Notes under the pieces: generated by a model
Seen by the model: only the letters and a program-made list of their open reading frames with translations
Told to the model about the DNA's origin: nothing
Databases searched by the model: none
Shown here: one piece after another, positions 785 to 19,685 of the stretch
Numbering within the stretch: position 1 is the first letter of the stretch
How the letters are laid out: each line of letters begins with the position of its first letter
Made by a program: the position numbers and the translations under genes
Assembly: GCA_964644695.1 (NCBI GenBank)
Contig: CAZXWN010000012.1
Span: forward strand, 58,326 to 78,325
DNA length: 20,000 bases
Source: an uncultured bacterium
Lineage (GTDB): Bacteria > UBP4 > UBA4092
Direction of reading: 5' to 3'

Positions 785-813
785 ATTATATCATTGGCGT
801 GTTTATTTATCAG
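785..813 (-). promoter_or_regulatory. putative sigma-70 promoter for panD (extended -10)
   Basis: Minus strand CTGATA (813-808), 17-nt spacer, TATAAT (790-785) preceded by TGn. Confidence 0.55.
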
Positions 814-1546
814 AATGAGAGTGAAAGTCTTGTTGTTTATCTGAATTGAGTAAAACTATGATTTCCTCATTTATTTGGTGGATAGTTTTCTCATCCGGGG
901 TTTCTGGAGAGTATTGATTCAACAAAGATTCGATTCTGCGTGCACACTGCGCTACAATCTCAAATCCATAAGTAGCGGCAGAACCCGCTAATTTATGTGT
1001 TTCCATAATCAGTTTTTTATACAGGTCATCGGATGGTTTTGTTTTGAAGGATTCCCATGTAATTTGTATTTGTTTGAATTTTTCGGGCAGTCGAAGCTTG
1101 TAACTATGATGTGCGGCCTGAAGTTTTTCCTGCATGGATGAATCGGGAGATGTTATTTGATTGGATTCCCAGATTTGATGGATTTGTTCCGGAAGAGTCA
1201 TGGGGTCAAATGGTTTGATTATGACATCCAAGGCTCCCATGTTTCGGTATTCATTCAGTTCTTTGGGGAGTACTTTGGCTGTTAGAAATACTACCGGTGT
1301 ATATCGTGTTGTATCCAGTTTTCGCAGTGCTGCTAGAGTGGTGGGGCCATCCATATCAGGCATCATTACATCCAGGATGATTATGTCCGGCTTAAACAGG
1401 GTGACCTTTTCGAGCGCTTCCAGACCCGAATTACATGTTTCAACGGTAAAGTGACCTACCAGCTCGAGTGACATTCTGATAATGTGTTGAATATCAGCAT
1501 CGTCTTCTACGCAAAGAATTCGTTTTGGTTTGTTTTTACTTGTCAT
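803..1546 (-). CDS. response regulator, receiver domain plus C-terminal Hpt domain
   Basis: REC motifs VEDD, LDVMMP (phospho-Asp), LTAK and KPF; C-terminal HKLAGSAATYG Hpt motif; no DNA-binding domain visible. Confidence 0.92.
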   Translation of the reverse strand: MTSKNKPKRILCVEDDADIQHIIRMSLELVGHFTVETCNSGLEALEKVTLFKPDIIILDVMMPDMDGPTTLAALRKLDTTRYTPVVFLTAKVLPKELNEYRNMGALDVIIKPFDPMTLPEQIHQIWESNQITSPDSSMQEKLQAAHHSYKLRLPEKFKQIQITWESFKTKPSDDLYKKLIMETHKLAGSAATYGFEIVAQCARRIESLLNQYSPETPDEKTIHQINEEIIVLLNSDKQQDFHSHSDK

Positions 1547-1563
1547 ATAAATAACACCCTGTA

Positions 1564-4500
1564 TTAACTGGTTTGTTTTGTTTCTGCAGAATGGTTGGGA
1601 TAGGGCAGAATAAAATAGAACTGAGTACCTTTCCCTGGTTCTGATTCATAACCTAATTGACCTTGATGATGGTCAATGATGGCCTTACATATACTCAACC
1701 CTAAACCAGTACCCCCTTGCTGTCGAGTATCAGACGAATCCGCCTGTGCAAATTTCGAAAAAATATGGGGACGGAACTCAAGAGGAATACCATTGCCATA
1801 ATCTTCAACTGTAACTCGGATTCCAACATCTGTTGAATCAACGATAATATTTATGGGTTTCCCAGGGGGTGAAAACTTGGCGGCGTTGGATAGAAGATTG
1901 GTCATGACCTGGTGAATCCTCTCTGGATCACCCATCACTGTATCTGAAACCACTCCAAGTTTATTAATGCATTTAAAAGATACCCCATATTTCACAGCTA
2001 ACGGTTGGTTGTTTTCCAGTGATTGTTTTACCAAGTTTGATAAAGGCATGGGAACAATATGGTACTGCATTTTCCCGGACTCTATTTTTTCTAAATCCAA
2101 TAAATCATTAATGAGTATCATTAATCGTTCACTGTTTCGACAGGCTCGAAGGAGTAGGTCCTGGGTAGAAGGATTTATGGTGCCTGTAACGCCCCCCATT
2201 ACTAATTTAAGGCTTCCGATAATAGATGTGAGCGGAGTACGGAGTTCGTGGCTTACGGTCGATATGAATTCATTTTTGAGCCGGTCAATTTTCTTCCGCT
2301 CCGTAATGTTTCGGATAATAACCAGAATTTCTTTTCCACTGGATACTACCAGTCGCGCCTCAAAATCAGAAGTTTTATGTCCTTTGGTTTGTTGATATTC
2401 AAACACCTGTATCTGGTGGTGGCGAAACGCTTTCAGTATATAGGATTGAATTTGTTCCACGATTGGTTGTGAAAACAAACTTAAGAGATGGTCACCGACA
2501 TGGTCTTTTTTGTTTGAGGAACCATGCGAACTCTTATAGTCCAGGATGATCCCATCCGAATTAATCCTCAGTATCATATCTGGAATGGCATTTATGAGTG
2601 CTCGATTTTTTTCTTCACTGTTCCGCAATGCCTCTTCCATCTGTTTTCGCTCAGTAATGTCCTCACTGATTGCTACGACATGCCGAATCCGGTTCTGATC
2701 ATCACGAACTGGAGAAATCGAAATGCTCTTCCAGTATGGCTCACCATTTTTTCTTTTCGTCTGGATCTCTCCGTGCCATTCTAAACCTGAATTGAGATTT
2801 TGAAGTAATTCAGTTAAATCCGGAAGGGAACTGTTTGTTCTAAAAAACTCAGACTGGGTTCCCACTAATTCGTATGAACTAAATCCTGAGATCTGGCAGA
2901 ATTTAGGATTTACATATTCCACATAACCCTGTGGATCCGTAATCATGACGGCTGCCGGACTCTGTTGCATGGCAGTGGATAAGGTTTGGATGCTTTCCTC
3001 AGTTTTCTTTCGCTCGGTTATATCTAGTGCTGTGCAGATAATGCCGAGTTTCCCGTTAATTTCTATCCGATTGGCGGAGAAATCTACCCAGCGAATCTCA
3101 CCGGTCTTGGATGAGAACATAAATTCCTGCCGGGGATAGGTGTCGTCGCTATACAGAAGGTCTGTTATTTGTTGTTGTAAAAGTTCCTGATGCTCTGGAT
3201 GTAGTATGTCATTCAGTGGTTTTCCGATAATATCATCTCGATTGTAACCCGTAATCTGAGTGAAAAAGGGATTCACATAGATGAGTTGATTGCTTTGAAT
3301 AATGAAGATGGCAACGGAAGCGGTTTCTGCTAACTGCCGGAATTTATTCTCACTTTCAACCAATGCCAGCTGGGCATTTTTGAGTGTCGTAATATCCCGT
3401 CCAATACTCTGGTATTCAGCAATGTGTTTATTATCGTCCAGGATAACTCGAGTGCTCCATGACAACCATCGTAATCCCTTCTCATGATGTTGAAGAGCAT
3501 ACTCAACCGTGTCTGTGGGATTTTCGGGAGAAAGTCCTGAATAATGTTGGATTAATTGTTTCCGGCTAGTAGGGTCTAATTCGGGGTGATATCTCTTACC
3601 GAGTAAAGATTCTTTTTCTACTCCAAAATATCGACAGAATCCCTCATTTACAAAAGTCAGATCACCACTTGTGTTTATCCGACAAATTAACTCGGTTTGT
3701 TCTTCAACGATGGCACGATACTGCTTCTCAGAAATCCGTAACTCAGATTCTATTTTTTGTCGTTGATTAAGTTCGTAGCGGAGCATCTGGTTTGTTTTTT
3801 CCAAGACGGTCGTTTGGTCTTCATAACGACGATTTAACTCACTGTGGGCCTGATGTTGAACGGTTTCCAGCCTTTTGTAATGGGTAATATCTTCAAGAAT
3901 TCCGTCGAAGAGAAGTTGTTCTTCTTCATTATAAAAACTCACCCCTGTCAGTTTCCCCACAAAATTACGGCCCTTCAGGGATACCAATGGAACTTCTTCG
4001 TTCTGTATAAATCCCTGTTTTTTTAGCTTCTCGATAATATGGATTCTATCTTTGGGATTTTTATAGATATGGCTGGGGGGGGTGTTTAACAGTTGCTCAC
4101 GCGTCTCTGCATCAAAAAATTTAAGCATTGCCTGGTTTACTTCCAGAAACTGGCCCGGCTGAGACTGGAGAGTTCTGAATACACCCACACTAAGATTGTT
4201 GATTAAAACATGGTAGGGGCCGGCCGGGTCATGGCTGGCAATCGGGCCTACCATAGAATCACTATCCTGGTTTATGTGAATGACCTTGCCAATACGGGTT
4301 TGTTGATTCGTTTGGGTAAGACTTATTTTGATATGGGGAGAACACTGGGCTGTTAAGATGAGAGTTTTGAATTCATTAATATTATGGATGGAGAGAAATT
4401 CCTGAGATGTACTATCCAGTAAATCTTTTAGAAAGAGCTTCTGACCAGGGTCTGATGTCAGTCCCAATAAAGATTGGGCTACAGAATCCATACATAATAT

Positions 4501-4578
4501 CGAAAGGTCTTCTCCGGTAATAAATACGCCCACAGGAGCTTCGGTTGTAGATGGGTCTGTAGGTATGTTTTTTGCCAT
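1564..4578 (-). CDS. soluble multi-PAS sensor histidine kinase
   Basis: About 5-6 PAS/PAC units ending in DIT/NIT; H-box SHELRTPL, N-box NLLSNAAKF, DYGNGI, GTGLGL; no obvious transmembrane segment. Confidence 0.95.
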   Translation of the reverse strand: MAKNIPTDPSTTEAPVGVFITGEDLSILCMDSVAQSLLGLTSDPGQKLFLKDLLDSTSQEFLSIHNINEFKTLILTAQCSPHIKISLTQTNQQTRIGKVIHINQDSDSMVGPIASHDPAGPYHVLINNLSVGVFRTLQSQPGQFLEVNQAMLKFFDAETREQLLNTPPSHIYKNPKDRIHIIEKLKKQGFIQNEEVPLVSLKGRNFVGKLTGVSFYNEEEQLLFDGILEDITHYKRLETVQHQAHSELNRRYEDQTTVLEKTNQMLRYELNQRQKIESELRISEKQYRAIVEEQTELICRINTSGDLTFVNEGFCRYFGVEKESLLGKRYHPELDPTSRKQLIQHYSGLSPENPTDTVEYALQHHEKGLRWLSWSTRVILDDNKHIAEYQSIGRDITTLKNAQLALVESENKFRQLAETASVAIFIIQSNQLIYVNPFFTQITGYNRDDIIGKPLNDILHPEHQELLQQQITDLLYSDDTYPRQEFMFSSKTGEIRWVDFSANRIEINGKLGIICTALDITERKKTEESIQTLSTAMQQSPAAVMITDPQGYVEYVNPKFCQISGFSSYELVGTQSEFFRTNSSLPDLTELLQNLNSGLEWHGEIQTKRKNGEPYWKSISISPVRDDQNRIRHVVAISEDITERKQMEEALRNSEEKNRALINAIPDMILRINSDGIILDYKSSHGSSNKKDHVGDHLLSLFSQPIVEQIQSYILKAFRHHQIQVFEYQQTKGHKTSDFEARLVVSSGKEILVIIRNITERKKIDRLKNEFISTVSHELRTPLTSIIGSLKLVMGGVTGTINPSTQDLLLRACRNSERLMILINDLLDLEKIESGKMQYHIVPMPLSNLVKQSLENNQPLAVKYGVSFKCINKLGVVSDTVMGDPERIHQVMTNLLSNAAKFSPPGKPINIIVDSTDVGIRVTVEDYGNGIPLEFRPHIFSKFAQADSSDTRQQGGTGLGLSICKAIIDHHQGQLGYESEPGKGTQFYFILPYPNHSAETKQTS

Positions 4579-9479: not shown

Positions 9480-9649
9480 TACAAAATAAATAGGTGTGCT
9501 TGAACACTGAGAGGTCTGTCCAATTTATGTTTTTGGACAAATTAATATTTTATGTTAACTGAATTGATTAAAGAAAGGTTTGGAGAATGAACACTAAAAA
9601 TAGTCTGAACTCCAATCATGATATAAAGTGTGTTGAAGGGAGACCTGTC

Positions 9650-12600
9650 ATGCCGATGAACAGAAATATTCTTTGGATCGTAATCTCATTGATCTTGTCT
9701 TTAATGCTGGCCTCATATTCGAGTGCGGCTGGATATAAAGCCACGGAAGTAAGTGGTATCACCAAGAAATCAGGTGGACAGGCTTCAGCATCTACAGTGA
9801 AGATGACTTCGAAATTGCCTGTTGATGCGCATATTTCTGACCAGATTGTTATTGGCTATAAGTCGCAGATTACAAGCGCTGATTCACAAAGTATTGCGGC
9901 TACCTATAATGTGAAAATCCTCAAAACCTCTGAATTCAACAATTATCAGTTAGTTCAAATTCCTGAAGGTAAAACAGTTGAGGAAATGACGAAGGTCTTG
10001 AGTAAAGACTCTCGAATTGCTTATGCTGAACCTAATTATTTAATGGAAATATATGGATATAATCCCAACGATCCCTATGTCAATGACACAACTTTTATCG
10101 AAGGGGTATCCACTGGAATAGATCCTAATGAAATTGTCTGGAATTATTATTATAATGACAGCACAGGTCATTATAGAGAAGTCCATACCTATCAAGATTA
10201 TTTATATCGCTTAGGTCTTCTTGACTTGCCGGGCGTTGAGTCTCCTTTATTTAATATATATGGAGTTTATTCATTTACTGCTTCTGGTGAATCTTCCGCA
10301 GGAACCGCTCATCTCGATATTGATCCTGTATTCTCTGTTTACAGTGTTACCCGGGGTTCAAGCAGCGTAAAGGTTGCTGTGCTTGATAGTGGTATTGATA
10401 AAGACCATGAGGATTTAACTGGAAAAATTGAACGAACTTGGAACTATGTGGGTACAGCCAATGATGGAGATGCTCCAGACACAAATGGACATGGAACACA
10501 AGTGGCTGGCGTAATTGCCGCCAGTGGAAATAATGGAAAAGGTGTCCATGGAATTGCTCCCAATGTGAGACTTATTGCGCTTAAAGTAATGAGTGGTGAT
10601 ACTGGAAGTACTTATGATATTGCAGAAGCCATTACGGGTGCTGCTGAAAGATGGGGCGCTAACATAATAAATATGAGTTTTGGTGCCACTTTTAGCCAAT
10701 TTTCTCCTCCCTCGCACATGATTACGGCATTGGAAAAAGCAAAATCTGCCGGATGTCATTTAGTTGCCGCCATGGGAAATGACTCTCGTGATTTCTCTGC
10801 ACCAACATCTGGAAATATCCCTAATGGCCCATGGGTTTTCCCTGCCATGTACCCCGGTGTTATTGGTGTTGGTTCCTGGAATATGAGATATAACTATTCC
10901 AATGATACAGTTTATGAACCTATTATCCCAAGCTATACCAATAAGGGTTGGAGATATGTGACTCCTTCTTATGCCTTAATGTCTGCTTACACCTATGGTT
11001 ATGATTCAGTTACTTGGGGAATGTATACATCAACTAATAATAGATTGTTTAATTATGGACTCTTGTCAGTTTCTGGGAGCATAAAATTTGATGCTGGAGA
11101 TATTTTAGGCACTGATGTAATGGCCCCCGGTGGCGATGCGGATGACCACTTAATCGTAAGTACTTATCCATATGAAGCTGCTGCTTCAACGGCTACCAGT
11201 GACCGTTATGAAGGAATGCAAAGTACATCAATGGCCGCTGCGCAAGTTTCCGGGATGCTTGGATTACTTTTGTCGGCCAAAGGAACGAACTTAAGTCGAG
11301 ATTATGTTCGAAATGTTTTATATCAATCTTCTTTAAATCCTTATAGTATGGTCAGTAACAGACCTGTTACCTTTGGTGATTACACGACGATTACCGGGTA
11401 TGGTTTGCCTGTACCTGCTAGGATGATGGAAAATAGAGTTCTTGTTGTAGATTATATTATTAACGATGCTCCTTCTGTCGATGGCCGCGTTGGTAATGGT
11501 GATGGGTTACTGAATTCTTCTGAAACGGTTGATATTCAACTCGGAGTCTATAATGCAATAGGTGCAGATTTAATTGGGACCTATGGTGTTCTTTCTTCTA
11601 ATGATGCTAATGTGACTGTCATCCAGGCTACAGGTCAATATGGAACGATAACCTCTGGATCTCTTGCTTATAATACAACTGGTTATAGAATCTCTCTAGC
11701 TAGTGTTTCTGACCCCTATACAGCAAAGATGACTCTTTACCTGCACTATATGGCTGGGGGCGATGAGCGCATTATGGCAGTCCCCGTTGAAATCCCCGTT
11801 TCCTTCAATGCCGGAGTGAGCAATCTCAGATTACAATCGGTTGAAATAATTGATGACTCGTATCGGGGAGCTGTTGGTAATGGTGATGGTCGCGCAGAGC
11901 CAGGTGAGACAGTCTTAGTTAAGTTAAATGTCCTTAATTATGGGGCTCCAGTGAGTAATGCCTATGCTGAGTTATCAACTGTTCATCCTCAGGCTAATGT
12001 GTATTATTCACCCGCAGGGCTTTTCTCTAATGGAAGTACAACTATTCCATTAAATGCCTACGCTGAAAACTCACCCTATTTCCAATTAAAATTTAATAAC
12101 TATACCTATACAACTAAACAAGATGTCACACTTTATATCACTATCTATAGTGAAAGCAGCGCTGTAACCTACTCGTTCACATTTACCCTATACCCCAAAG
12201 TTGGTGGCATTTATCATCAGCTCCAGACAGAGAAAGTAAATGTGGAACAGCTGAGTCGGTGGAACTATGGTGTTAATGGATATTTGGGTGATTATAAGAC
12301 TATTTTGTCACCTTCTATATATGACAATTTAGATCAAAATTTAACCTTAAGTAATCCATTGATTAATAACACGGGATTTATCCTCACGAAGGCAAGTGGG
12401 GCTCCACTTACTTCTGAATTATATGTTCACAGTGCATTACCTCATAATATTGTGTATGATTCACACTATACCGGTAAATTAGATGCAATAAAAATCTATG
12501 GACCTCAAACTGAATATTACTCTGGATACTATATAAGTAGCACTTACTCAAATGCTACGATTTATGGTATGGCGAGCCTTTCTGCCAATGGGGGATACAC

Positions 12601-15600
12601 AATTTTTGATGATACAACTTACCGAACTACATACGACAGAATAACTTCAGCAAAAGATGATGAAGGGGTTCTGATATCAAGAGATGTCATTGGGCAGTCT
12701 TATACCTATGCCATGATGGAAACCCTCATCACTGCAACCGCCGTACAGGGTTTTTATGGTAATGAAGTTTATACACCAACGGGTGGCGTTCCTATTACTA
12801 AGAAAGAATGGCTTGATCGTTTCCCCATAGTGTTTGCACATGAAACGTCGTTATCTTTAGATCATTTCGAAATATATGACTATCGCGAGAGCGGTATTTC
12901 CAATGGTTTAATCGAACCCGGTGATTCTGTTAAGTTGAAACCGTTTATTAGGAATAACGCACCTTGGGGATTAGCCTATTCTTACATGCTGGCTGGTGAT
13001 ACTACAGCTGATCCACCAACAGAAGATGAAGTGATTGATTATCCCTTGATGGCTAGGCTGGTAGTGGACGATCCCTATATCACTGTATCCGTTCCCACTG
13101 TTATGTTTGATCCAACCAATGTTTATAATCCCAGTAAACAGACTTTTGTGACTGATGGGGGTGCCTTTGAGTTTACTGTATCACCTGGCATGCCTCAGAA
13201 CCATAAAATCTATTTTGAAGTTCAGGTTTTGGGTATAATTGACACTTCTATTCCATACCCGTACTTGGTCACGGACACAACTAATACAGATATTTTGAAA
13301 GCAGTGAGTGAATATACAACCTTCTACTGCCCTGGCTGGTTAGAGAGTGGTCAGCTGGTTGTATATGATGGAACAACATCGCAGGCTGGTACCAGCTTGA
13401 CAGATCCTCTTCAGTTTGTAGATAGAATGGTATCCAGAACTTATTGGACGAATAGTAATTTTGGACCTAATCCTAAGCATTTATTGAGCTGGAATGATGG
13501 TATCGCCAAGAATACTACGTATCTTGCGTACACAACAGCTATTTACAATAATGGTGATGGACTCATAAATCCGGGAGAGAATATTAGTTTGAATTTCTCT
13601 GTTTGGAACCGTAACTTTAATGATGAGGTCAATGGTATTACTGCATATTTAAGTACTACCGATGATGGTGTTTACATTACTGACAGTACTGTCCGGGTGG
13701 GTAGCTTATCTGGAAGAGAAATTGTTCGAGTGAATGATGCTTTTGGATTCTATACGCATTTGGATTTTCTGAAGCCATCAATCAAATTCCATATTACATT
13801 TAAAGATACTCAGGGACGGAGTTACGATAACAGCATTGATGTTCCGGTGAAAAAATCTTATCCTCCACAATTACCTGGTTTCCCTGTCGCTTTAGACCAG
13901 AGGATAACATCTTCTCCAACCATTGCGGATTTTGATTCTGATGGTATTGTAGAGGCCATTATTGGTCAACAGTCTGGTAAAGTATCTGCTTACAAAATTA
14001 CTTTCCCGAAATTTGAGATGGCAAATGATTCGACCTACAGTATGGTGCCCAACCCTGTTTGGCAAGTATCCTGTGGCATCCCGGTAAACATTTCTCCAGC
14101 TGTGGGTGATATTGATGGTAGCGGATCTAAAGCTGTTGTTGTTGTTGCCAGTGATGGTAACCTTTATGCGTGGAGTACCACAGGGCAAAGCTATGGAAAC
14201 TCTACAGGTCTTTTGGTTAACCTGCGTCAGAGTGGAAATACTTTATGGACACCTCCTGTCCTTGTTGATTTAGATTCCAGTAAGCCAGGTTTAGAGATTG
14301 TTGCTGGTGGAACTTATAGTGATGGCGCTACTATCAAGGGGCAGATCTTCGCTTTCAGTTCGGATGGGCAGCCTATCGGATTCTTTGGTTCCCAGTGGTC
14401 CAGAGATGGTCTGCTAAATGGACCTGTTTATGTGGCACCCGCAATTATCGAGGATGACCCTGCTGATCCCAAAGTGGTCGTTGCTTCCAGATTAGGTGAA
14501 GTGATTATCTACGGCAAGAATGGGTTGATGCAGCACCAGTACAATATCCCTGGTAATATTACTATTAATGCACCACCAGTAATTGTTGATATTGATCAAG
14601 ATGGTTCTAGTGATGTCGTTGTAAAATGTAGCGATGGTAATATTTGGGCTATCAGTGGTGATGGGACATTGAAGAATGGTTTCCCCGTTATGACAGGTGG
14701 TAGTGTTGCAACACCTCTGGCTGTTTATGATAGTAACTTCGATGGTTTCCCAGAGATTATCTGCGGTGGTACAGATGCCGTTTCATATGTATATTATGAT
14801 GCTTTGAGTACACTTGCTTATTCGAACGAAATGCCAATTTATGGGTTTGGAAAGACTAATATTGTTGCCCAGCCAGCTATGGTAGATATGGATCGTGATG
14901 AATATACGGAAATGGCTGTTACTGATGCCGAAGGCGCCCTGCAAGCATACCAAGTCGCTGTATCGGCAGACCCTGACAATGCAGGGCTTGTTAATTCCAT
15001 TCTGAATAACATTTATGCAACACCGACTTCCTTTGGTTTTATGAATAATTCTCCAGCTGTTGTGCGACTTGCAAACCCATACTCCCCGTCCATTGGTGGT
15101 GATCCAATGAACCATGTTGTTGTTGTGAATGGAAACAAGGGGAACGTTGGTTCTGTGTATGCATTCTTGGTGCAGTACGATTCAGACACAGCCAATTACT
15201 TCTGGCCACAGTTCCGCCGTGATGAACGTCATACAGGATTGTATATGGCTCCTTCCGTTCCATTGTCTAATCCGAATCTTCAGGTTATCCGTACTGATGT
15301 TGGATTGAATGTTTCCGGCGATGCCTTCTCGACTGGTGTTAAATCGAAAACATTGGTCCCGGGTGACACTGTCGATCTTTATGTTCTCTTGAGCAACTTG
15401 GGTCTTGGTAATGCGAAGTCCGTCGAAGGTGTTTTAAGCTGTAGTAATTCAGATATCACAATTACAAAGAATTCTTCAGCGTATGGCGATGTGGCTCCGG
15501 GTGCAATTGTGAAAAACCAGGAAGGATTCCGGGTAACCCTGAATTCCAACATGGCCATTCCTTCTTCCGGCAAAGTCATATTCAAACTGGCGGTTACCTT

Positions 15601-15706
15601 TGTCAATGATAAAGGTCAGGCTGATTCACTTTCTCTGAATGTTGTGGTGCCCGTGAGCTCGCAGCGTACTGATGAAACACCCGTGAAGAACTGGGAGCTT
15701 TACTAA
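9650..15706 (+). CDS. large secreted S8 (subtilisin-like) serine peptidase with prodomain, five Ig-like modules and FG-GAP/beta-propeller repeats
   Basis: Triad VLDSG / HGTQVAG / STSMA, oxyanion MGND and prodomain ending YAEPNY. The start is more likely ATG 9650 (AAGGGAG 7 nt upstream, followed by signal peptide MPMNRNILWIV...SSA) than 9587. Confidence 0.9.
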   Translation: MPMNRNILWIVISLILSLMLASYSSAAGYKATEVSGITKKSGGQASASTVKMTSKLPVDAHISDQIVIGYKSQITSADSQSIAATYNVKILKTSEFNNYQLVQIPEGKTVEEMTKVLSKDSRIAYAEPNYLMEIYGYNPNDPYVNDTTFIEGVSTGIDPNEIVWNYYYNDSTGHYREVHTYQDYLYRLGLLDLPGVESPLFNIYGVYSFTASGESSAGTAHLDIDPVFSVYSVTRGSSSVKVAVLDSGIDKDHEDLTGKIERTWNYVGTANDGDAPDTNGHGTQVAGVIAASGNNGKGVHGIAPNVRLIALKVMSGDTGSTYDIAEAITGAAERWGANIINMSFGATFSQFSPPSHMITALEKAKSAGCHLVAAMGNDSRDFSAPTSGNIPNGPWVFPAMYPGVIGVGSWNMRYNYSNDTVYEPIIPSYTNKGWRYVTPSYALMSAYTYGYDSVTWGMYTSTNNRLFNYGLLSVSGSIKFDAGDILGTDVMAPGGDADDHLIVSTYPYEAAASTATSDRYEGMQSTSMAAAQVSGMLGLLLSAKGTNLSRDYVRNVLYQSSLNPYSMVSNRPVTFGDYTTITGYGLPVPARMMENRVLVVDYIINDAPSVDGRVGNGDGLLNSSETVDIQLGVYNAIGADLIGTYGVLSSNDANVTVIQATGQYGTITSGSLAYNTTGYRISLASVSDPYTAKMTLYLHYMAGGDERIMAVPVEIPVSFNAGVSNLRLQSVEIIDDSYRGAVGNGDGRAEPGETVLVKLNVLNYGAPVSNAYAELSTVHPQANVYYSPAGLFSNGSTTIPLNAYAENSPYFQLKFNNYTYTTKQDVTLYITIYSESSAVTYSFTFTLYPKVGGIYHQLQTEKVNVEQLSRWNYGVNGYLGDYKTILSPSIYDNLDQNLTLSNPLINNTGFILTKASGAPLTSELYVHSALPHNIVYDSHYTGKLDAIKIYGPQTEYYSGYYISSTYSNATIYGMASLSANGGYTIFDDTTYRTTYDRITSAKDDEGVLISRDVIGQSYTYAMMETLITATAVQGFYGNEVYTPTGGVPITKKEWLDRFPIVFAHETSLSLDHFEIYDYRESGISNGLIEPGDSVKLKPFIRNNAPWGLAYSYMLAGDTTADPPTEDEVIDYPLMARLVVDDPYITVSVPTVMFDPTNVYNPSKQTFVTDGGAFEFTVSPGMPQNHKIYFEVQVLGIIDTSIPYPYLVTDTTNTDILKAVSEYTTFYCPGWLESGQLVVYDGTTSQAGTSLTDPLQFVDRMVSRTYWTNSNFGPNPKHLLSWNDGIAKNTTYLAYTTAIYNNGDGLINPGENISLNFSVWNRNFNDEVNGITAYLSTTDDGVYITDSTVRVGSLSGREIVRVNDAFGFYTHLDFLKPSIKFHITFKDTQGRSYDNSIDVPVKKSYPPQLPGFPVALDQRITSSPTIADFDSDGIVEAIIGQQSGKVSAYKITFPKFEMANDSTYSMVPNPVWQVSCGIPVNISPAVGDIDGSGSKAVVVVASDGNLYAWSTTGQSYGNSTGLLVNLRQSGNTLWTPPVLVDLDSSKPGLEIVAGGTYSDGATIKGQIFAFSSDGQPIGFFGSQWSRDGLLNGPVYVAPAIIEDDPADPKVVVASRLGEVIIYGKNGLMQHQYNIPGNITINAPPVIVDIDQDGSSDVVVKCSDGNIWAISGDGTLKNGFPVMTGGSVATPLAVYDSNFDGFPEIICGGTDAVSYVYYDALSTLAYSNEMPIYGFGKTNIVAQPAMVDMDRDEYTEMAVTDAEGALQAYQVAVSADPDNAGLVNSILNNIYATPTSFGFMNNSPAVVRLANPYSPSIGGDPMNHVVVVNGNKGNVGSVYAFLVQYDSDTANYFWPQFRRDERHTGLYMAPSVPLSNPNLQVIRTDVGLNVSGDAFSTGVKSKTLVPGDTVDLYVLLSNLGLGNAKSVEGVLSCSNSDITITKNSSAYGDVAPGAIVKNQEGFRVTLNSNMAIPSSGKVIFKLAVTFVNDKGQADSLSLNVVVPVSSQRTDETPVKNWELY

Positions 15707-17503: not shown

Positions 17504-18610
17504 ATGGCTGAAAAAAAGAAGAAAACAGCTCAACCGATAGAGGAAAAACTCGCCCCGTTGCGGGAAGAAATTAATAATATTGATGAACAGATTCTGGAGG
17601 CCTTGGCCCGCAGAGCAGAATATGTCCTCAAGGTAGCGGAAGTTAAAAAGAATAACCGGGGTGCCTATTATGCTCCTCATCGGGAAAAGCAGATATATGC
17701 CCGCTTGTCGAAAATGAATAAAGGGAAATTCCCTGATGAAGCAGTCCATGCCATTTTCCGGGAAATTATGTCTGCTTCCATTGCCATGGAAAAGCCTCAA
17801 AAAATCGCCTACCTTGGACCAGAAGCCTCCTATACTCACATGGCCAGTTTACATAAGTTTGGGTCGCAGATGGAATTTGTGGCGATGGATTCTATTGAGG
17901 CTGTATTTACGGAAGTCGGCAAGGGGTGGGCGGATTATGGTGTCGTTCCCATTGAAAACTCAACGGAAGGTGTCATCAGTAATACCCTTGATATGTTTAT
18001 TGATTCCGAAATGAAAATCTGTTCTGAAATAGTGATGCCTATTTCCCATAATCTTATTTCTTTGGAATCTGACTTTAAGAAAATCAAAAAGGTATATTCC
18101 CGTGACAGTGCCCTGGCACAGTGTCATCAGTGGTTGGCTAACAATCTTCCCAATGCGGAGCTGGTTGCTGTCTCCAGCACTACGAGAGGCGTCCAGATGG
18201 CGAAACGGTCCAACAAGTCAGCGGCAATTTCCAGTGAACTGGCATCTTCCCTTTACAAAGTTCCCATTCAGGCAAAAGGCATCGAGGATATGACGGGGAA
18301 CCGAACACGATTTCTGGTTATCAGCCTGAAAGAAAGCGAACGATCTGGCGATGACAAAACCTCCCTCTTATTTTCCATAAAAGATAAAGTCGGTGCCCTG
18401 TATAATGCGTTGCGGCCTTTTTACAAATTAGGGATTAACATGACGCGGATTGAGTCTCGGCCCTCCCGAAGGAAGGCTTGGGATTATGTCTTCTTTGTTG
18501 ATATCCTGGGTTATAAAGATGATCCAAAATTAGCAAAGGCTCTCAGTGAGGTTTCCGAGCATTGTGCGTTCCTCAAAGTTCTTGGTTCTTACCCCATCAG
18601 TACCGAATAA
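17504..18610 (+). CDS. pheA: bifunctional chorismate mutase / prephenate dehydratase (P-protein)
   Basis: AroQ domain (LREEINNIDEQIL..L..R), PDT domain (YLGP, PIENSTEG, NRTRF), ACT domain (GAL, IESRP, FFVD, LGSYP). Confidence 0.95.
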   Translation: MAEKKKKTAQPIEEKLAPLREEINNIDEQILEALARRAEYVLKVAEVKKNNRGAYYAPHREKQIYARLSKMNKGKFPDEAVHAIFREIMSASIAMEKPQKIAYLGPEASYTHMASLHKFGSQMEFVAMDSIEAVFTEVGKGWADYGVVPIENSTEGVISNTLDMFIDSEMKICSEIVMPISHNLISLESDFKKIKKVYSRDSALAQCHQWLANNLPNAELVAVSSTTRGVQMAKRSNKSAAISSELASSLYKVPIQAKGIEDMTGNRTRFLVISLKESERSGDDKTSLLFSIKDKVGALYNALRPFYKLGINMTRIESRPSRRKAWDYVFFVDILGYKDDPKLAKALSEVSEHCAFLKVLGSYPISTE

Positions 18611-18661
18611 ATAGGGTCAAATAACCCCATCTAAATATTAAATGGGGTCTGAATACCCCAT
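18611..18661. promoter_or_regulatory. two tandem 20-bp palindromes, candidate upstream activator sites for a sigma-54 enhancer-binding protein
   Basis: ATAGGGT-caaata-ACCCCAT (18611-18630) and ATGGGGT-ctgaat-ACCCCAT (18642-18661), offset 31 bp. Confidence 0.55.
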
Positions 18662-18670
18662 ATAATAACC

Positions 18671-18706
18671 AAAAGCCCTTCCGATTTAAGGAAGGGCTTT
18701 TTTATT
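18671..18706 (+). terminator. intrinsic terminator after pheA
   Basis: AAAAGCCCTTCC-gatttaa-GGAAGGGCTTTT followed by TTATT. Confidence 0.88.
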
Positions 18707-18718
18707 AAAACATTGATT
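18706..18718 (-). promoter_or_regulatory. IHF-binding core consensus
   Basis: Minus strand AATCAA-tgtt-TTA fits WATCAA-N4-TTR exactly, and lies between the palindromes and the -24/-12 element. Confidence 0.5.
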
Positions 18719-18756
18719 ATATTGACGATACAGAAATTATTGCTTTATTCCAATGG

Positions 18757-18773
18757 TTGGCACGAATATTGCT
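18757..18773 (+). promoter_or_regulatory. sigma-54 (RpoN) -24/-12 promoter
   Basis: T-TGGCACG-aata-TTGCT is a perfect match to TGGCACG-N4-TTGCW; predicted +1 about 18784. Confidence 0.85.
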
Positions 18774-18783
18774 CTATATATAA

Positions 18784-18841
18784 GTAACATTTCACGGAGC
18801 AGTGTCCGTCCCCCCTTCGGATACCTGCTCCTTTTTCTTTT
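18784..18841 (+). ncRNA. putative sigma-54-dependent small RNA (single hairpin, C-rich loop, U-tail)
   Basis: GGAGCAG-TGTCCG (18796-18808) pairs with CGGATA-c-CTGCTCC (18818-18831); loop T-C6-TT; followed by TTTTTCTTTT; no ORF; starts about 12 nt after the -12 element. Confidence 0.6.
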
Positions 18842-19143
18842 ACCCCTATTTTGAGCACTCTCCCCTGACTCCCTAATCAATCCTCTACCACTACCTTTTA
18901 CAACTCCATTTCGTTCCTCAAAACCGACGATGAAGAAACGAAGAGGGTAGGTCCAAAAATCATTGATTGATATTGTTATGATTCACCGGGTTAATCTCCT
19001 CCATTGCGCTCCTATTGCACCAGGCATCCTTGACAAGGTGTAGTATAATCTCGAATGAGTGCAGAAAAGCAAAATTACTTCAAATAAAACTTGAAGATAA
19101 TACCGATAGGGATTCTACTTGGGTATCATGGAGGATGTAATTA

Positions 19144-19437
19144 ATGGAGTATTATTTTCTGGAAAATGGGGAAGAAATTCCAGCAAAAACCGGGGATATG
19201 ATGATGCACAACGATAAATACTGCTGTTGGATCATATTAATCCCAGCCTCTGAAAATTATATATGTGAGGATAGTGTATATATGTTTTGGTTTGATATAA
19301 AAACAAAGAAAATGGTTCTGCTGGAATATTGTAATGACCCTGAGTATTTTATGGAATCGTGTATAAAATTATTGGATGCTTCTCATCCAGACAATATTTG
19401 GAATCAATACTGGACGGGGTGGGAAAATTGTCTTTGA
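19144..19437 (+). CDS. hypothetical protein (97 aa), paralogue 1
   Basis: GGAGG at 19130-19134; shares motifs with the next ORF. Confidence 0.65.
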   Translation: MEYYFLENGEEIPAKTGDMMMHNDKYCCWIILIPASENYICEDSVYMFWFDIKTKKMVLLEYCNDPEYFMESCIKLLDASHPDNIWNQYWTGWENCL

Positions 19438-19685
19438 GATATCAAAATGGACTGGAAGTTATGGAAGGTGATTTGGTGACGGTGGATTTTCAAGATTGTT
19501 GCTGGGTTAGATACTTCAATGACGACACCATAACCGTTTATAAGTATGGGCCAACTGGAAGAACGATGGAGCCCTTCAGAAGAATGAAAGATACACAAGG
19601 TTTGTATATGTGTAAACGGGCAGATGACTACGATAATCCTTTTCAGGAATGGTTAACAAATAAAGAATGGCTGCCTGATGAATAA
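19428..19685 (+). CDS. hypothetical protein (~85 aa), paralogue 2
   Basis: Probable TTG start at 19428 (GGGGTG upstream, 10-nt overlap with the previous ORF) rather than 19359; NGxE..GD..CCW motif shared with the upstream ORF. Confidence 0.6.
   Translation: MSLRYQNGLEVMEGDLVTVDFQDCCWVRYFNDDTITVYKYGPTGRTMEPFRRMKDTQGLYMCKRADDYDNPFQEWLTNKEWLPDE

What the first reader, a model, noticed from the sequence alone, without database searches (positions are those of the whole stretch)
18611..18841. Complete enhancer-IHF-sigma54 promoter driving a tiny ORF-less RNA: candidate novel sigma-54 sRNA gene
Seen, in order: two 20-bp palindromes centred near -163 and -132, the pheA terminator that insulates the unit, an exact IHF core near -78 to -66, a perfect TGGCACG-N4-TTGCT, then a 13-bp hairpin with a U-C6-UU loop and a U-tract ending about 55 nt after the predicted +1. 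Established: UAS, then IHF, then -24/-12 is the textbook layout of bEBP-activated sigma-54 promoters. Sigma-54 sRNAs exist (Vibrio Qrr, Pseudomonas CrcZ), and C-rich loops act as anti-Shine-Dalgarno seeds (staphylococcal RNAIII, RsaE). Inference: this is a signal-controlled minimal sRNA whose terminator loop is also its seed. I do not recognise it as a named family.
Basis: partly seen in the sequence, partly recalled or inferred. Interest (0 to 1): 0.85.

Follow-up and report, generated by a model that had tools for sequence, protein, structure and literature searches.

The report
New sigma-54 small RNA family
Just after the pheA gene lies a tiny non-coding RNA gene with its own sigma-54 promoter and activator-binding sites; it is conserved across a small uncultured bacterial phylum and matches no described RNA family, though the general kind is known.

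Summary
The window holds two 18-bp palindromes (18612-18629, 18643-18660), the pheA terminator, an IHF-like core, a perfect -24/-12 element (18758-18773) and a hairpin plus U-tract (18796-18841).

Comparative evidence supports the reading as a free-standing small RNA gene.
- The whole cassette recurs in 5 of 5 genomes of the phylum and in one metagenome contig. That makes 7 copies, including a second copy in the window's own genome.
- All 7 keep GG-N10-GC, paired upstream palindromes 31-33 bp apart, the stem GAGCAG/CUGCUC, the unpaired loop motif UCCCCCUU and a U-tract.
- The next gene differs between loci and is convergent in 2 of 7, so this is not a leader.
- Rfam gives no match.
- rpoN, hfq, IHF-like genes and 8 enhancer-binding proteins are present.

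Still open:
- No expression data could be obtained.
- The cognate activator is not identified.
- Targets are only hinted at. A rare GGGGG-type ribosome-binding site is retained in the HU, porin-like and sdhC genes.
- The IHF match is at chance level and is not conserved in the second family.

Verdict: a well-supported new member of a known kind, the activator- and sigma-54-controlled sRNAs with a C-rich loop. Interest is moderate.

The parts
17504..18610 (+). pheA (chorismate mutase / prephenate dehydratase / ACT); conserved upstream neighbour of the RNA gene
   Evidence: Pfam CM_2+PDT+ACT. The same gene lies directly upstream in 5 of 7 copies.
18612..18629 (.). Upstream activator site 1, TAGGGT-N6-ACCCCA (presumed bEBP dimer site)
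   Evidence: An aligned site is present in every copy.
18643..18660 (.). Upstream activator site 2, TGGGGT-N6-ACCCCA, 31 bp from site 1 and about 108 bp upstream of the -24 GG
   Evidence: Unique exact match in the genome. The half-sites are unchanged in strain variants while the spacer and flanks vary.
18671..18701 (+). pheA intrinsic terminator (symmetric hairpin flanked by A and T runs)
   Evidence: 12 pairs, 6 GC. Not evident at the aligned place in the other genomes.
18706..18718 (-). IHF-like core WATCAANNNNTTR
   Evidence: Exact match, but 1.88 are expected per window. A TTGATT core recurs 45-57 bp upstream of the GG in the 4 pheA-linked copies of the window's family, read by eye. I saw none in G003 and did not inspect G000 copy 2 or G004.
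18758..18773 (+). Sigma-54 promoter TGGCACG-N4-TTGCT (-24 GG at 18759-60, -12 GC at 18771-72)
   Evidence: GG-N10-GC is kept in 7 of 7 copies.
18784..18841 (+). Predicted sRNA, about 53-58 nt: 12-nt A/U-rich 5' tail, one hairpin, U-tract
   Evidence: The +1 is inferred from the -12 spacing. Covariance-model scores are 71-78 bits. No Rfam match.
18796..18831 (+). Hairpin of 13 pairs with one bulged C; the lower stem GAGCAG/CUGCUC is invariant in the family
18809..18817 (+). Loop UCCCCCCUU carrying the family-wide motif UCCCCCUU (proposed anti-Shine-Dalgarno seed)
   Evidence: Present in 7 of 7 copies and unpaired in all 7 minimum-energy folds.
18832..18841 (+). U-tract of the intrinsic terminator (also a possible Hfq-binding 3' end)
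   Evidence: A T-tract follows the stem in 7 of 7 copies. hfq is present.

Best explanation
This is a free-standing gene for a very small trans-acting regulatory RNA. It is about 55 nt in this family of genomes and about 63-67 nt in the sister family.

A response-regulator-type enhancer-binding protein probably binds as dimers to two 18-bp palindromes (consensus TGSGGT-N6-ACCSCA). The palindromes lie three helical turns apart and about 90-120 bp upstream. With looping through an A/T-rich, possibly IHF-bent spacer, the activator opens a sigma-54 -24/-12 promoter. Transcription starts near 18784 and ends at the RNA's only hairpin, which is an intrinsic terminator.

The invariant C-rich loop motif UCCCCCUU is the working surface. 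I propose that it pairs with G-rich ribosome-binding sites of the rare AAGGGGG type. This would block or alter translation of a small regulon, probably with Hfq held on the 3' U-tract. Candidate targets are the HU, porin-like and sdhC genes.

Shown: the sequence elements, their conservation, phasing and uniqueness, and the presence of rpoN, hfq and bEBP genes. Inferred: transcription, the activator's identity, loop-target pairing and the direction of regulation.

My odds: about 0.8 that this is a sigma-54-dependent independent small RNA gene, and about 0.45 that the loop acts by pairing with G-rich ribosome-binding sites. The confidence figure of 0.6 is for the statement as a whole.
For: 1. 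Conservation
- The cassette is found in 5 of 5 genomes of the phylum, plus one metagenome contig and a second copy in the own genome (G000:C5:73412-73477). That makes 7 copies.
- Outside the phylum, 6 of 146 genomes gave weak model hits. The 5 whose loci I read are plain terminators without a -24/-12 element; the sixth (G061) was not fetched or read.

2. Promoter
- 7 of 7 copies keep TGGYAYR-N4-TYGCT.
- The distance from the -12 C to the stem is 23-25 nt in the 5 copies of family f1 and 28-32 nt in the 2 of family f2.

3. Activator sites
- All 7 copies have two palindrome-like sites 31-33 bp apart.
- All other exact matches in the 5 genomes (11 places) lie inside long open frames. None has a good -24/-12 element nearby; one degenerate promoter-like match turned up in L215.

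4. RNA structure
- All 7 fold as one hairpin, z from -4.1 to -7.8.
- On the 10-pair stem, 92.9% of cells pair.
- Two pairs show changes on both sides (GC/AU/UA and AU/GC/GU).
- The covariation score is 0.229 against 0.114 in shuffles; 7 of 500 shuffles reach it.
- Slid controls pair in only 39-67% of cells.
- The upper stems of the two own-genome copies have different sequences, yet both pair.

5. Loop
- UCCCCCUU is invariant and unpaired in 7 of 7. The 5' tail is conserved only within f1.

6. Not a leader
- The next gene is convergent in 2 of 7 loci. In the rest it is unrelated between loci (unknown ORF, trxB-like, fn3 protein), except NamZ in both f2 genomes.

7. Machinery
- rpoN: 1 copy.
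- 8 bEBPs, 7 of them with receiver domains.
- hfq present.
- IHF-alpha/beta-like genes present but below the equivalog cut-offs.

8. Strain variants
- One DNA contig spanning 18751-19009 shows no listed difference before 18864 and 15 after it. Changes in the enhancer region fall in spacers and flanks.

9. Targets
- GGGGG-type ribosome-binding sites are rare: 14 of 1928 crude ORFs.
- They are nevertheless retained in orthologues of HU (3 of 3), the porin-like gene (2 of 2 in f1, as a 12-mer) and sdhC (1 of 1).
Against: - No transcript evidence. No RNA run was available, and the laid runs are contigs that are probably DNA.
- The cognate bEBP is not identified. Seven of 8 have reciprocal-best orthologues in all 5 genomes, and none sits beside either copy.
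- Covariation rests on 7 related sequences. Six of 10 pairs never vary. The alignment was fitted to the model. The metagenome copy was found with a pattern that fixed the lower stem.
- In 5 of 7 loci a same-strand gene follows within about 60-300 nt, so some read-through function cannot be excluded.
- Target support is weak. Of the 10 G-rich-site genes inspected, 6 lose the motif in relatives and 1 keeps it only partly. Core pairings are only 7-10 bp. Strongly expressed genes may keep strong ribosome-binding sites for their own reasons.
- The IHF core is at chance level. I saw no such core in G003.
Confidence: 0.6

Rival explanations
1. It is a conditional 5' leader or attenuator. The sigma-54 promoter really serves the downstream gene, and the hairpin is a regulated terminator.
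For: A same-strand gene follows in 5 of 7 loci: the ORF at 19144 in the window, a trxB-like gene after copy 2, an fn3 protein in G001 and NamZ in G003 and G004. In both f2 genomes the follower is the same gene.
Against: The next gene is convergent in G002 and in the metagenome contig. The followers are unrelated between f1 loci. I saw no alternative anti-terminator pairing in the 11-20 nt tail. The hairpin plus an 8-12 nt U-rich tract is a strong terminator in all 7 copies. The invariant loop motif has no role in this model.
Confidence: 0.12
2. It is a protein-binding or decoy RNA. The C-rich loop and the invariant GAGCAG/CUGCUC stem would be recognised by a protein, or would mimic the 16S anti-Shine-Dalgarno region to titrate a factor, rather than pair with mRNAs.
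For: Six stem pairs are invariant across two families. That is more than a terminator needs and could mark a protein contact. The copy in this window has a loop of only 9 nt.
Against: CsrA is not found. There is one motif per RNA, whereas known sponges carry many. The loop is complementary to a rare, conserved class of ribosome-binding sites. No candidate binding protein is linked to the loci.
Confidence: 0.1
3. The RNA is made, but from an overlapping sigma-70-type promoter in the A/T-rich stretch after the -12 element, or from both promoters as at some known sRNA genes. The enhancer would then be modulatory or irrelevant.
For: TTGGCA resembles a -35 hexamer, and TATATA/TATAAG-like hexamers lie between -12 and +1.
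Against: The sigma-70 scan found no such site on the + strand here. Spacings between the -35-like and -10-like hexamers are 10-16 bp and differ between copies. GG-N10-GC and the paired palindromes are what is conserved in 7 of 7.
Confidence: 0.05
4. It has no function of its own: a chance promoter-like match beside an ordinary terminator.
For: Single consensus matches are common. The IHF core is at chance level.
Against: The whole ordered cassette is conserved in 7 copies across two families, while the flanking intergenic DNA diverges. The palindrome is unique in the genome.
Confidence: 0.02

Closest known systems
Qrr sRNAs of Vibrio (LuxO/sigma-54-dependent; Rfam RF00378)
   Same: Small trans-acting RNAs driven by a sigma-54 promoter, with binding sites for a response-regulator bEBP upstream. 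There can be more than one paralogue per genome, and the activator seems devoted mainly to the sRNA genes. Source: PMC10162802, search listing (title and start of abstract) only; the rest is recalled.
   Different: No Rfam match. This RNA is about 55 nt with one hairpin; recalled Qrr RNAs are about 100 nt with four. The activator site motif differs. The conserved single-stranded element here is a C-rich terminator loop.
GlmY/GlmZ (GlrR/sigma-54 with IHF) and CrcZ (CbrB/sigma-54 with IHF)
   Same: The layout of enhancer, IHF site and -24/-12 element in front of a non-coding RNA gene. Sources: PMC4152352 and PMC8871633, search listings only; the layout details are recalled.
   Different: Those RNAs are much larger and act by decoy or protein sequestration. 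Neither Rfam family matches. The IHF site here is not above chance.
C-rich (UCCC) loop sRNAs of low-GC bacteria: LhrC, RsaE/RoxS, RNAIII
   Same: An unpaired C-rich motif in a hairpin loop pairs with the G-rich ribosome-binding site. In LhrC4 the terminator loop itself carries a CUCCC motif and contributes to binding lapB mRNA (PMC4132741, passages read). I recall that LhrC is also multicopy and induced by a two-component system.
   Different: Those RNAs use sigma-A-type promoters and carry several motifs. Here there is one motif, in the only hairpin, under sigma-54 control, in a lineage that has outer-membrane genes. RsaE was not among the Rfam matches.
Non-coding RNAs in the sigma-54 regulome of Desulfovibrio vulgaris
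   Same: Comparative genomics placed 4 non-coding RNAs under bEBP/sigma-54 control. [quoted passage not shown]
   Different: A different lineage. I did not compare sequences or structures, and that paper's supplements were not available to me.
NrsZ (Pseudomonas) and GlnZ (enterobacteria), RpoN-dependent sRNAs of the NtrC regulon
   Same: sRNAs that depend on sigma-54 (PMC9731577, passages read).
   Different: GlnZ is cut from an mRNA 3' UTR, and NrsZ is processed from a longer transcript (recalled). The present RNA has its own promoter directly in front and no link to ntrBC or glnA.

Membership tests
bEBP-activated sigma-54 promoter | GG and GC dinucleotides exactly 10 bp apart within TGGCAC-N5-TTGC | tested here: met
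   TGGCACG-N4-TTGCT at 18758-18773, with 0.13 expected per window. Kept in 7 of 7 copies.
bEBP-activated sigma-54 promoter | Upstream activator sites (inverted repeats) about 80-150 bp upstream | tested here: met
   Two 18-bp palindromes lie 31-33 bp apart and about 90-120 bp upstream in all 7 copies. The exact site is unique in the genome. Protein binding itself was not tested.
bEBP-activated sigma-54 promoter | rpoN and at least one bEBP with a DNA-binding domain in the genome | tested here: met
   rpoN at 205 bits. Eight proteins carry Sigma54_activat; seven of them match HTH_8 at E <= 1e-5. The cognate one is unresolved.
bEBP-activated sigma-54 promoter | Transcription depends on sigma-54 and on ATP hydrolysis by the activator | not testable with these tools
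   No RNA data.
IHF-assisted enhancer looping | A conserved IHF site between enhancer and promoter, and IHF genes in the genome | tested here: inconclusive
   The exact core at 18706-18718 is at chance level. A TTGATT core recurs in the 4 pheA-linked f1 copies; I saw none in G003 and did not inspect G000 copy 2 or G004 (read by eye). IHF-alpha/beta-like proteins score below the equivalog cut-offs.
Any described RNA family (Rfam 15, including Qrr, GlmY/GlmZ, CrcZ, RsaE) | Covariance-model score at or above the family's gathering threshold | tested here: not met
   0 matches at gathering thresholds over the whole window. At E <= 10, the only hit overlapping 18784-18841 is a 14-bit match to a eukaryotic repeat. 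The other weak hits sit on the pheA terminator.
Hfq-type sRNA with intrinsic terminator | A GC-rich terminal hairpin followed by a U-tract, and hfq in the genome | tested here: met
   Hfq binding itself is not testable here.
C-rich-loop anti-Shine-Dalgarno sRNAs (works like LhrC or RsaE) | A conserved unpaired C-rich motif complementary to the ribosome-binding sites of conserved targets | tested here: inconclusive
   The motif is invariant and unpaired in 7 of 7. Of 10 candidate genes, 3 keep a complementary site in their orthologues, 1 partly and 6 do not. No pairing experiment exists.
5' leader / attenuator | A co-oriented, conserved downstream gene fed by the same promoter | tested here: not met
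   The next gene is convergent in 2 of 7 loci and unrelated in the others, except NamZ in the two f2 genomes.

The most novel reading that the evidence does not exclude
The RNA is a minimal anti-Shine-Dalgarno mimic. A single terminator hairpin carries a C5 loop that out-competes the ribosome only on a rare, conserved class of AAGGGGG-type ribosome-binding sites (HU, a major porin-like protein, succinate dehydrogenase, perhaps Pal). One dedicated two-component bEBP, whose only enhancer sites in the genome are at these RNA genes, would thereby switch nucleoid, envelope and respiratory proteins together throughout an uncultured phylum.
Probability: 0.2. Interest if true: 0.6.

Novelty: new member of a known kind. 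Interest (0 to 1): 0.45.

Why it matters
It gives a small, uncultured phylum from sludge and wastewater-type samples its first well-defined candidate riboregulator, with the regulatory cassette laid out: enhancer, sigma-54 promoter, RNA and terminator. The enhancer sites occur only at the RNA genes. The locus therefore offers a clean way to pair one of seven conserved response-regulator activators with its DNA site, and a single signal with a post-transcriptional output. With one hairpin and one motif, the RNA would also be a convenient minimal model for how a terminator loop can serve as a seed. It does not change how this class of regulators is understood.

Tried and rejected
- Public genome contigs. 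A scan with a 19-base hairpin pattern returned at least 120 hits, the number chance predicts, in unrelated taxa.
- Expression. No RNA holder was listed. The four runs laid (three labelled RNA but probably DNA) are contigs, which cannot show starts, ends or levels.
- Rfam weak hits at 18505-18785. These are rimP, Thr, Phe and PyrR leaders at 27-34 bits against thresholds of 47-55. They sit on the pheA terminator and were dismissed.
- Extra model hits. G004:C26, G001:C53 and 5 of the 6 hits outside the phylum are plain terminators without a -24/-12 element. The sixth outside hit (G061) was not fetched or read.
- Finding the cognate bEBP, four routes:
  - Phyletic pattern: 7 of 8 are present in all 5 genomes.
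  - Neighbourhood of both RNA copies: none present.
  - Promoter-like sites near each bEBP gene: 3 have none, which is not decisive.
  - Extra enhancer sites: the other 11 places with an exact match, in G001, G003 and G004, all lie inside open frames.
- Targets.
  - A 12-nt match of the copy-2 loop to the dapF ribosome-binding site is not conserved in 3 of 3 relatives.
  - The G-rich sites of metW, tmk, a B12/radical-SAM gene, a UvrD-type helicase and DJ-1 are also lost in relatives.
  - The pal-like gene upstream of rpoN keeps it only in G003.
- A MAFFT alignment of the 7 RNAs (A4) misplaced the second family's stem. It was replaced by a model-based alignment (A6).
- No 16S rRNA 3' end was found in the assembly with a universal primer motif, so the organism's anti-Shine-Dalgarno sequence could not be read.
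- Supplementary files of papers were not consulted. The non-coding RNA list in PMC4641369 may be relevant.
- Searches for prior reports found nothing describing this RNA. Because the lineage is unnamed here, a search by organism name was not possible.

Full report
**1. The observation**

Reading 18300-19400 confirms each element.
- pheA (CM_2+PDT+ACT) ends at 18610.
- Two 18-bp palindromes follow: TAGGGT-N6-ACCCCA at 18612-18629 and TGGGGT-N6-ACCCCA at 18643-18660.
- The exact palindrome occurs once in the 3.07-Mb genome, where 0.08 is expected. The neighbouring site is one of 4 one-mismatch matches.
- A symmetric terminator hairpin lies at 18671-18701.
- The minus strand of 18706-18718 matches the IHF core WATCAANNNNTTR. 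The window holds 2 such matches where 1.88 are expected, so this element alone carries no weight.
- TGGCACG-N4-TTGCT at 18758-18773 is the only match in the window, with 0.13 expected. It is one of 9 matches to a slightly looser pattern in the genome.
- Counting 12 nt from the -12 C puts +1 at 18784.
- The hairpin 18796-18831 has 13 pairs, one bulged C and the loop UCCCCCCUU. It folds at -20.9 kcal/mol with z = -6.55. A TTTTTCTTTT tract follows.
- The predicted RNA has no AUG.

**2. Is it a known RNA?**

Rfam 15 gives nothing at gathering thresholds over the whole window. At E <= 10 over 18500-19200 it gives only sub-threshold hits. Nearly all of them sit on the pheA terminator.

**3. Relatives**

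The window lies at the end of contig C12 of a 28-contig, 42% GC genome. Only five species-level genomes are held for its phylum, in two families: f1 (G000, G001, G002) and f2 (G003, G004).

How the copies were found:
- A DNA search found the promoter-to-terminator stretch at 78% identity in G001.
- A pattern search found it in G002.
- A metagenome scan found one more copy, L146.
- A covariance model built from four f1 sequences found a second copy in the window's own genome at C5:73412-73477. It also gave weak hits in both f2 genomes.
- A model rebuilt from all seven sequences scores the f2 copies at 57 and 48 bits.

Outside the phylum, 6 of 146 genomes gave weak hits. The 5 whose loci I read are ordinary terminators without a -24/-12 element; the sixth (G061) was not fetched. 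Two extra weak hits inside the phylum are of the same kind.

The family therefore has 7 copies: 6 in 5 of 5 genomes of the phylum, and 1 on a metagenome contig.

**4. What is conserved**

- Promoter: TGGYAYR-N4-TYGCT in 7 of 7. The -12 C lies 23-25 nt before the stem in the five f1 copies and 28-32 nt before it in the two f2 copies.
- Enhancer: two palindrome-like sites 31-33 bp apart, about 90-120 bp upstream of the GG, in 7 of 7.
  - The f1 copies read TGGGGT-N6-ACCCCA with some degenerate arms.
  - The f2 copies read TGCGGT-N6-ACCGCA and variants.
  - Copy 2 of the own genome has one good half-site per palindrome.
- RNA: the stem GAGCAG/CUGCUC, the loop motif UCCCCCUU and a U-tract are in all 7.
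  - All 7 fold as one hairpin with the motif unpaired, z from -4.1 to -7.8.
- The 5' tail (ACAUUUCAC) is conserved only inside f1. The loop motif is therefore the one single-stranded element conserved phylum-wide.
- Covariation on the model-fitted alignment:
  - 92.9% of 70 cells pair, against 39-67% when the partner column is slid.
  - 2 of 10 pairs change on both sides. The closing pair is GC in 4, AU in 2 and UA in 1. The ninth pair is AU, GC or GU.
  - 6 pairs never vary.
  - The covariation score is 0.229 against 0.114 in shuffles, and 7 of 500 shuffles reach it.
  - This is modest. It leans on an alignment fitted to the structure, and the metagenome copy was found with a pattern that fixed the lower stem.
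  - Beyond the modelled pairs, the two own-genome copies have upper stems of unrelated sequence that both pair.
- Strain-level contigs agree. One DNA contig spanning 18751-19009 shows its first listed difference at 18864 and 15 differences in all. Differences in the enhancer region fall at 18630, 18639, 18649 and 18663, which are spacers and flanks rather than half-sites. That table was truncated, so this is only a hint.

**5. Gene or leader?**

pheA lies directly upstream in 5 of 7 copies. The G003 contig starts too close to tell, and copy 2 lies elsewhere.

The gene after the RNA differs from locus to locus:
- an unknown 97-aa ORF 300 nt away in the window;
- a thioredoxin-reductase-like gene after copy 2;
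- an fn3 protein in G001;
- NamZ in G003 and G004;
- convergent genes in G002 (PHP domain) and in L146.

A promoter, an 11-20 nt tail and a strong terminator kept together in front of unrelated or convergent genes fit an independent small RNA gene. They do not fit an attenuator.

**6. Machinery**

- rpoN is present once.
- Eight proteins carry the sigma-54 interaction domain. Seven have a receiver domain and one has TPR repeats.
- hfq is present. CsrA was not found.
- Of four HU/IHF-family proteins, two look most like IHF alpha and beta but score below the equivalog cut-offs.

**7. The activator**

I could not identify it.
- Seven of the 8 bEBPs have reciprocal-best orthologues in all five genomes.
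- None lies near either RNA copy.
- Three have no promoter-like site within 6 kb.
- All other exact matches to the palindrome in the five genomes, 11 places, lie inside long open frames. None has a good sigma-54 promoter nearby; one degenerate promoter-like match was seen in L215.

The enhancer therefore appears to exist only at the RNA genes. This suggests an activator devoted to them.

**8. Targets**

The loop motif is complementary to AAGGGGGA.
- In a crude gene set, GGGGG in the ribosome-binding region is rare: 14 of 1928, against 150 for GGAGG.
- Forty-six sites with AAGGGGG or AGGGGGA lie just upstream of a possible start codon.
- I inspected the orthologues of 10 plausible genes, with these results:
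  - HU keeps the G-rich site in G001, G002 and G003. That is 3 of 3 orthologues at 62% identity or more. The best G004 hit, at 46% identity, lacks it.
  - A porin-like protein (Alginate_exp/Porin_4) keeps the 12-mer CCTTAAGGGGGA in G001 and G002. The distant f2 homologues lack it.
  - sdhC keeps it in G001, the only relative where the gene was found.
  - A Pal-like lipoprotein gene upstream of rpoN keeps it in G003 only.
  - dapF, metW, tmk, a B12-binding gene, a UvrD-type helicase and DJ-1 lose it.
- Predicted core duplexes are 7-10 bp.

This hints at a small regulon of abundant proteins. It is no more than a hint, because such genes may keep strong ribosome-binding sites for other reasons.

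**9. Comparison with known systems**

- Sigma-54/bEBP-dependent sRNAs are established:
  - Qrr (PMC10162802, listing);
  - GlmY/GlmZ (PMC4152352, listing);
  - CrcZ through CbrB (PMC8871633, listing);
  - NrsZ and GlnZ (PMC9731577, passages);
  - four non-coding RNAs in the Desulfovibrio vulgaris sigma-54 regulome (PMC4641369, passages).
- C-rich loop motifs that pair with ribosome-binding sites are established in low-GC bacteria. In LhrC4 the terminator loop contributes to binding (PMC4132741, passages).
- The present RNA combines the two ideas in a very small molecule. It matches none of these families by sequence or model.
- I file it as a new member of a known kind. Three literature searches turned up nothing describing it, but I could not search by organism name.

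**10. Verdict**

Expression, the activator and the targets remain open. Interest is moderate.

Noticed in passing
G000:C5:73412-73477 (L152 1507-1564), outside the window: A second copy of the RNA gene in the same genome. It has the promoter TGGCACG-N4-TCGCT, two degenerate enhancer sites 33 bp apart and the same loop UCCCCCCUU. Its closing pair is U-A instead of G-C, and its upper stem has an unrelated sequence. A thioredoxin-reductase-like gene starts about 70 nt after its terminator.
   Followed up: yes
whole genome G000 (script): GGGGG-type ribosome-binding sites are rare: 14 of 1928 crude ORFs. They are nevertheless retained across genera in front of the HU, porin-like and sdhC genes.
   Followed up: partly
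G000:C11 upstream of 64572 (minus strand); G001:C29 (L253); G002:C28 (L252): The 5' region of a porin-like gene keeps the 12-mer CCTTAAGGGGGA in three genera. In G000 the flanks AATCC and GGATT could also pair with each other across the ribosome-binding site.
   Followed up: partly
L152 1141-1161 (G000:C5, about 330 bp upstream of the copy-2 promoter): A palindrome, GAGGGTAATATTTACCCTC, resembles the enhancer half-sites. It could be a third site or a terminator of the upstream gene.
   Followed up: no
window 9587-15706 (+): A 2039-aa open reading frame was not analysed. Upstream at 803-4578 (-) lie a receiver+Hpt protein and a multi-PAS histidine kinase, with no evident link to the RNA gene.
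   Followed up: no
window 19144-19437 and 19359-19685 (+): Two overlapping ORFs of 97 and 108 aa in different frames have no Pfam match. They may be one gene with a frameshift, or two small genes. The contig ends at 20000.
   Followed up: no
G000:C1:609500-615000 (L237) and the matching loci in G001-G004: rpoN lies downstream of a 430-aa ORF, a Pal-like lipoprotein gene and a second lipoprotein gene in the four genomes where the region is complete, an arrangement I did not expect. The gene names were inferred by eye from N-terminal sequences, not from a family search.
   Followed up: partly
L150 60-190 (G003:C40, contig start): Two direct repeats of about 60 bp lie just upstream of the enhancer sites, at the very start of the contig.
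   Followed up: no
whole genome G000: No 16S rRNA 3' end was found with a universal primer motif, so the assembly probably lacks the rRNA operon.
   Followed up: partly
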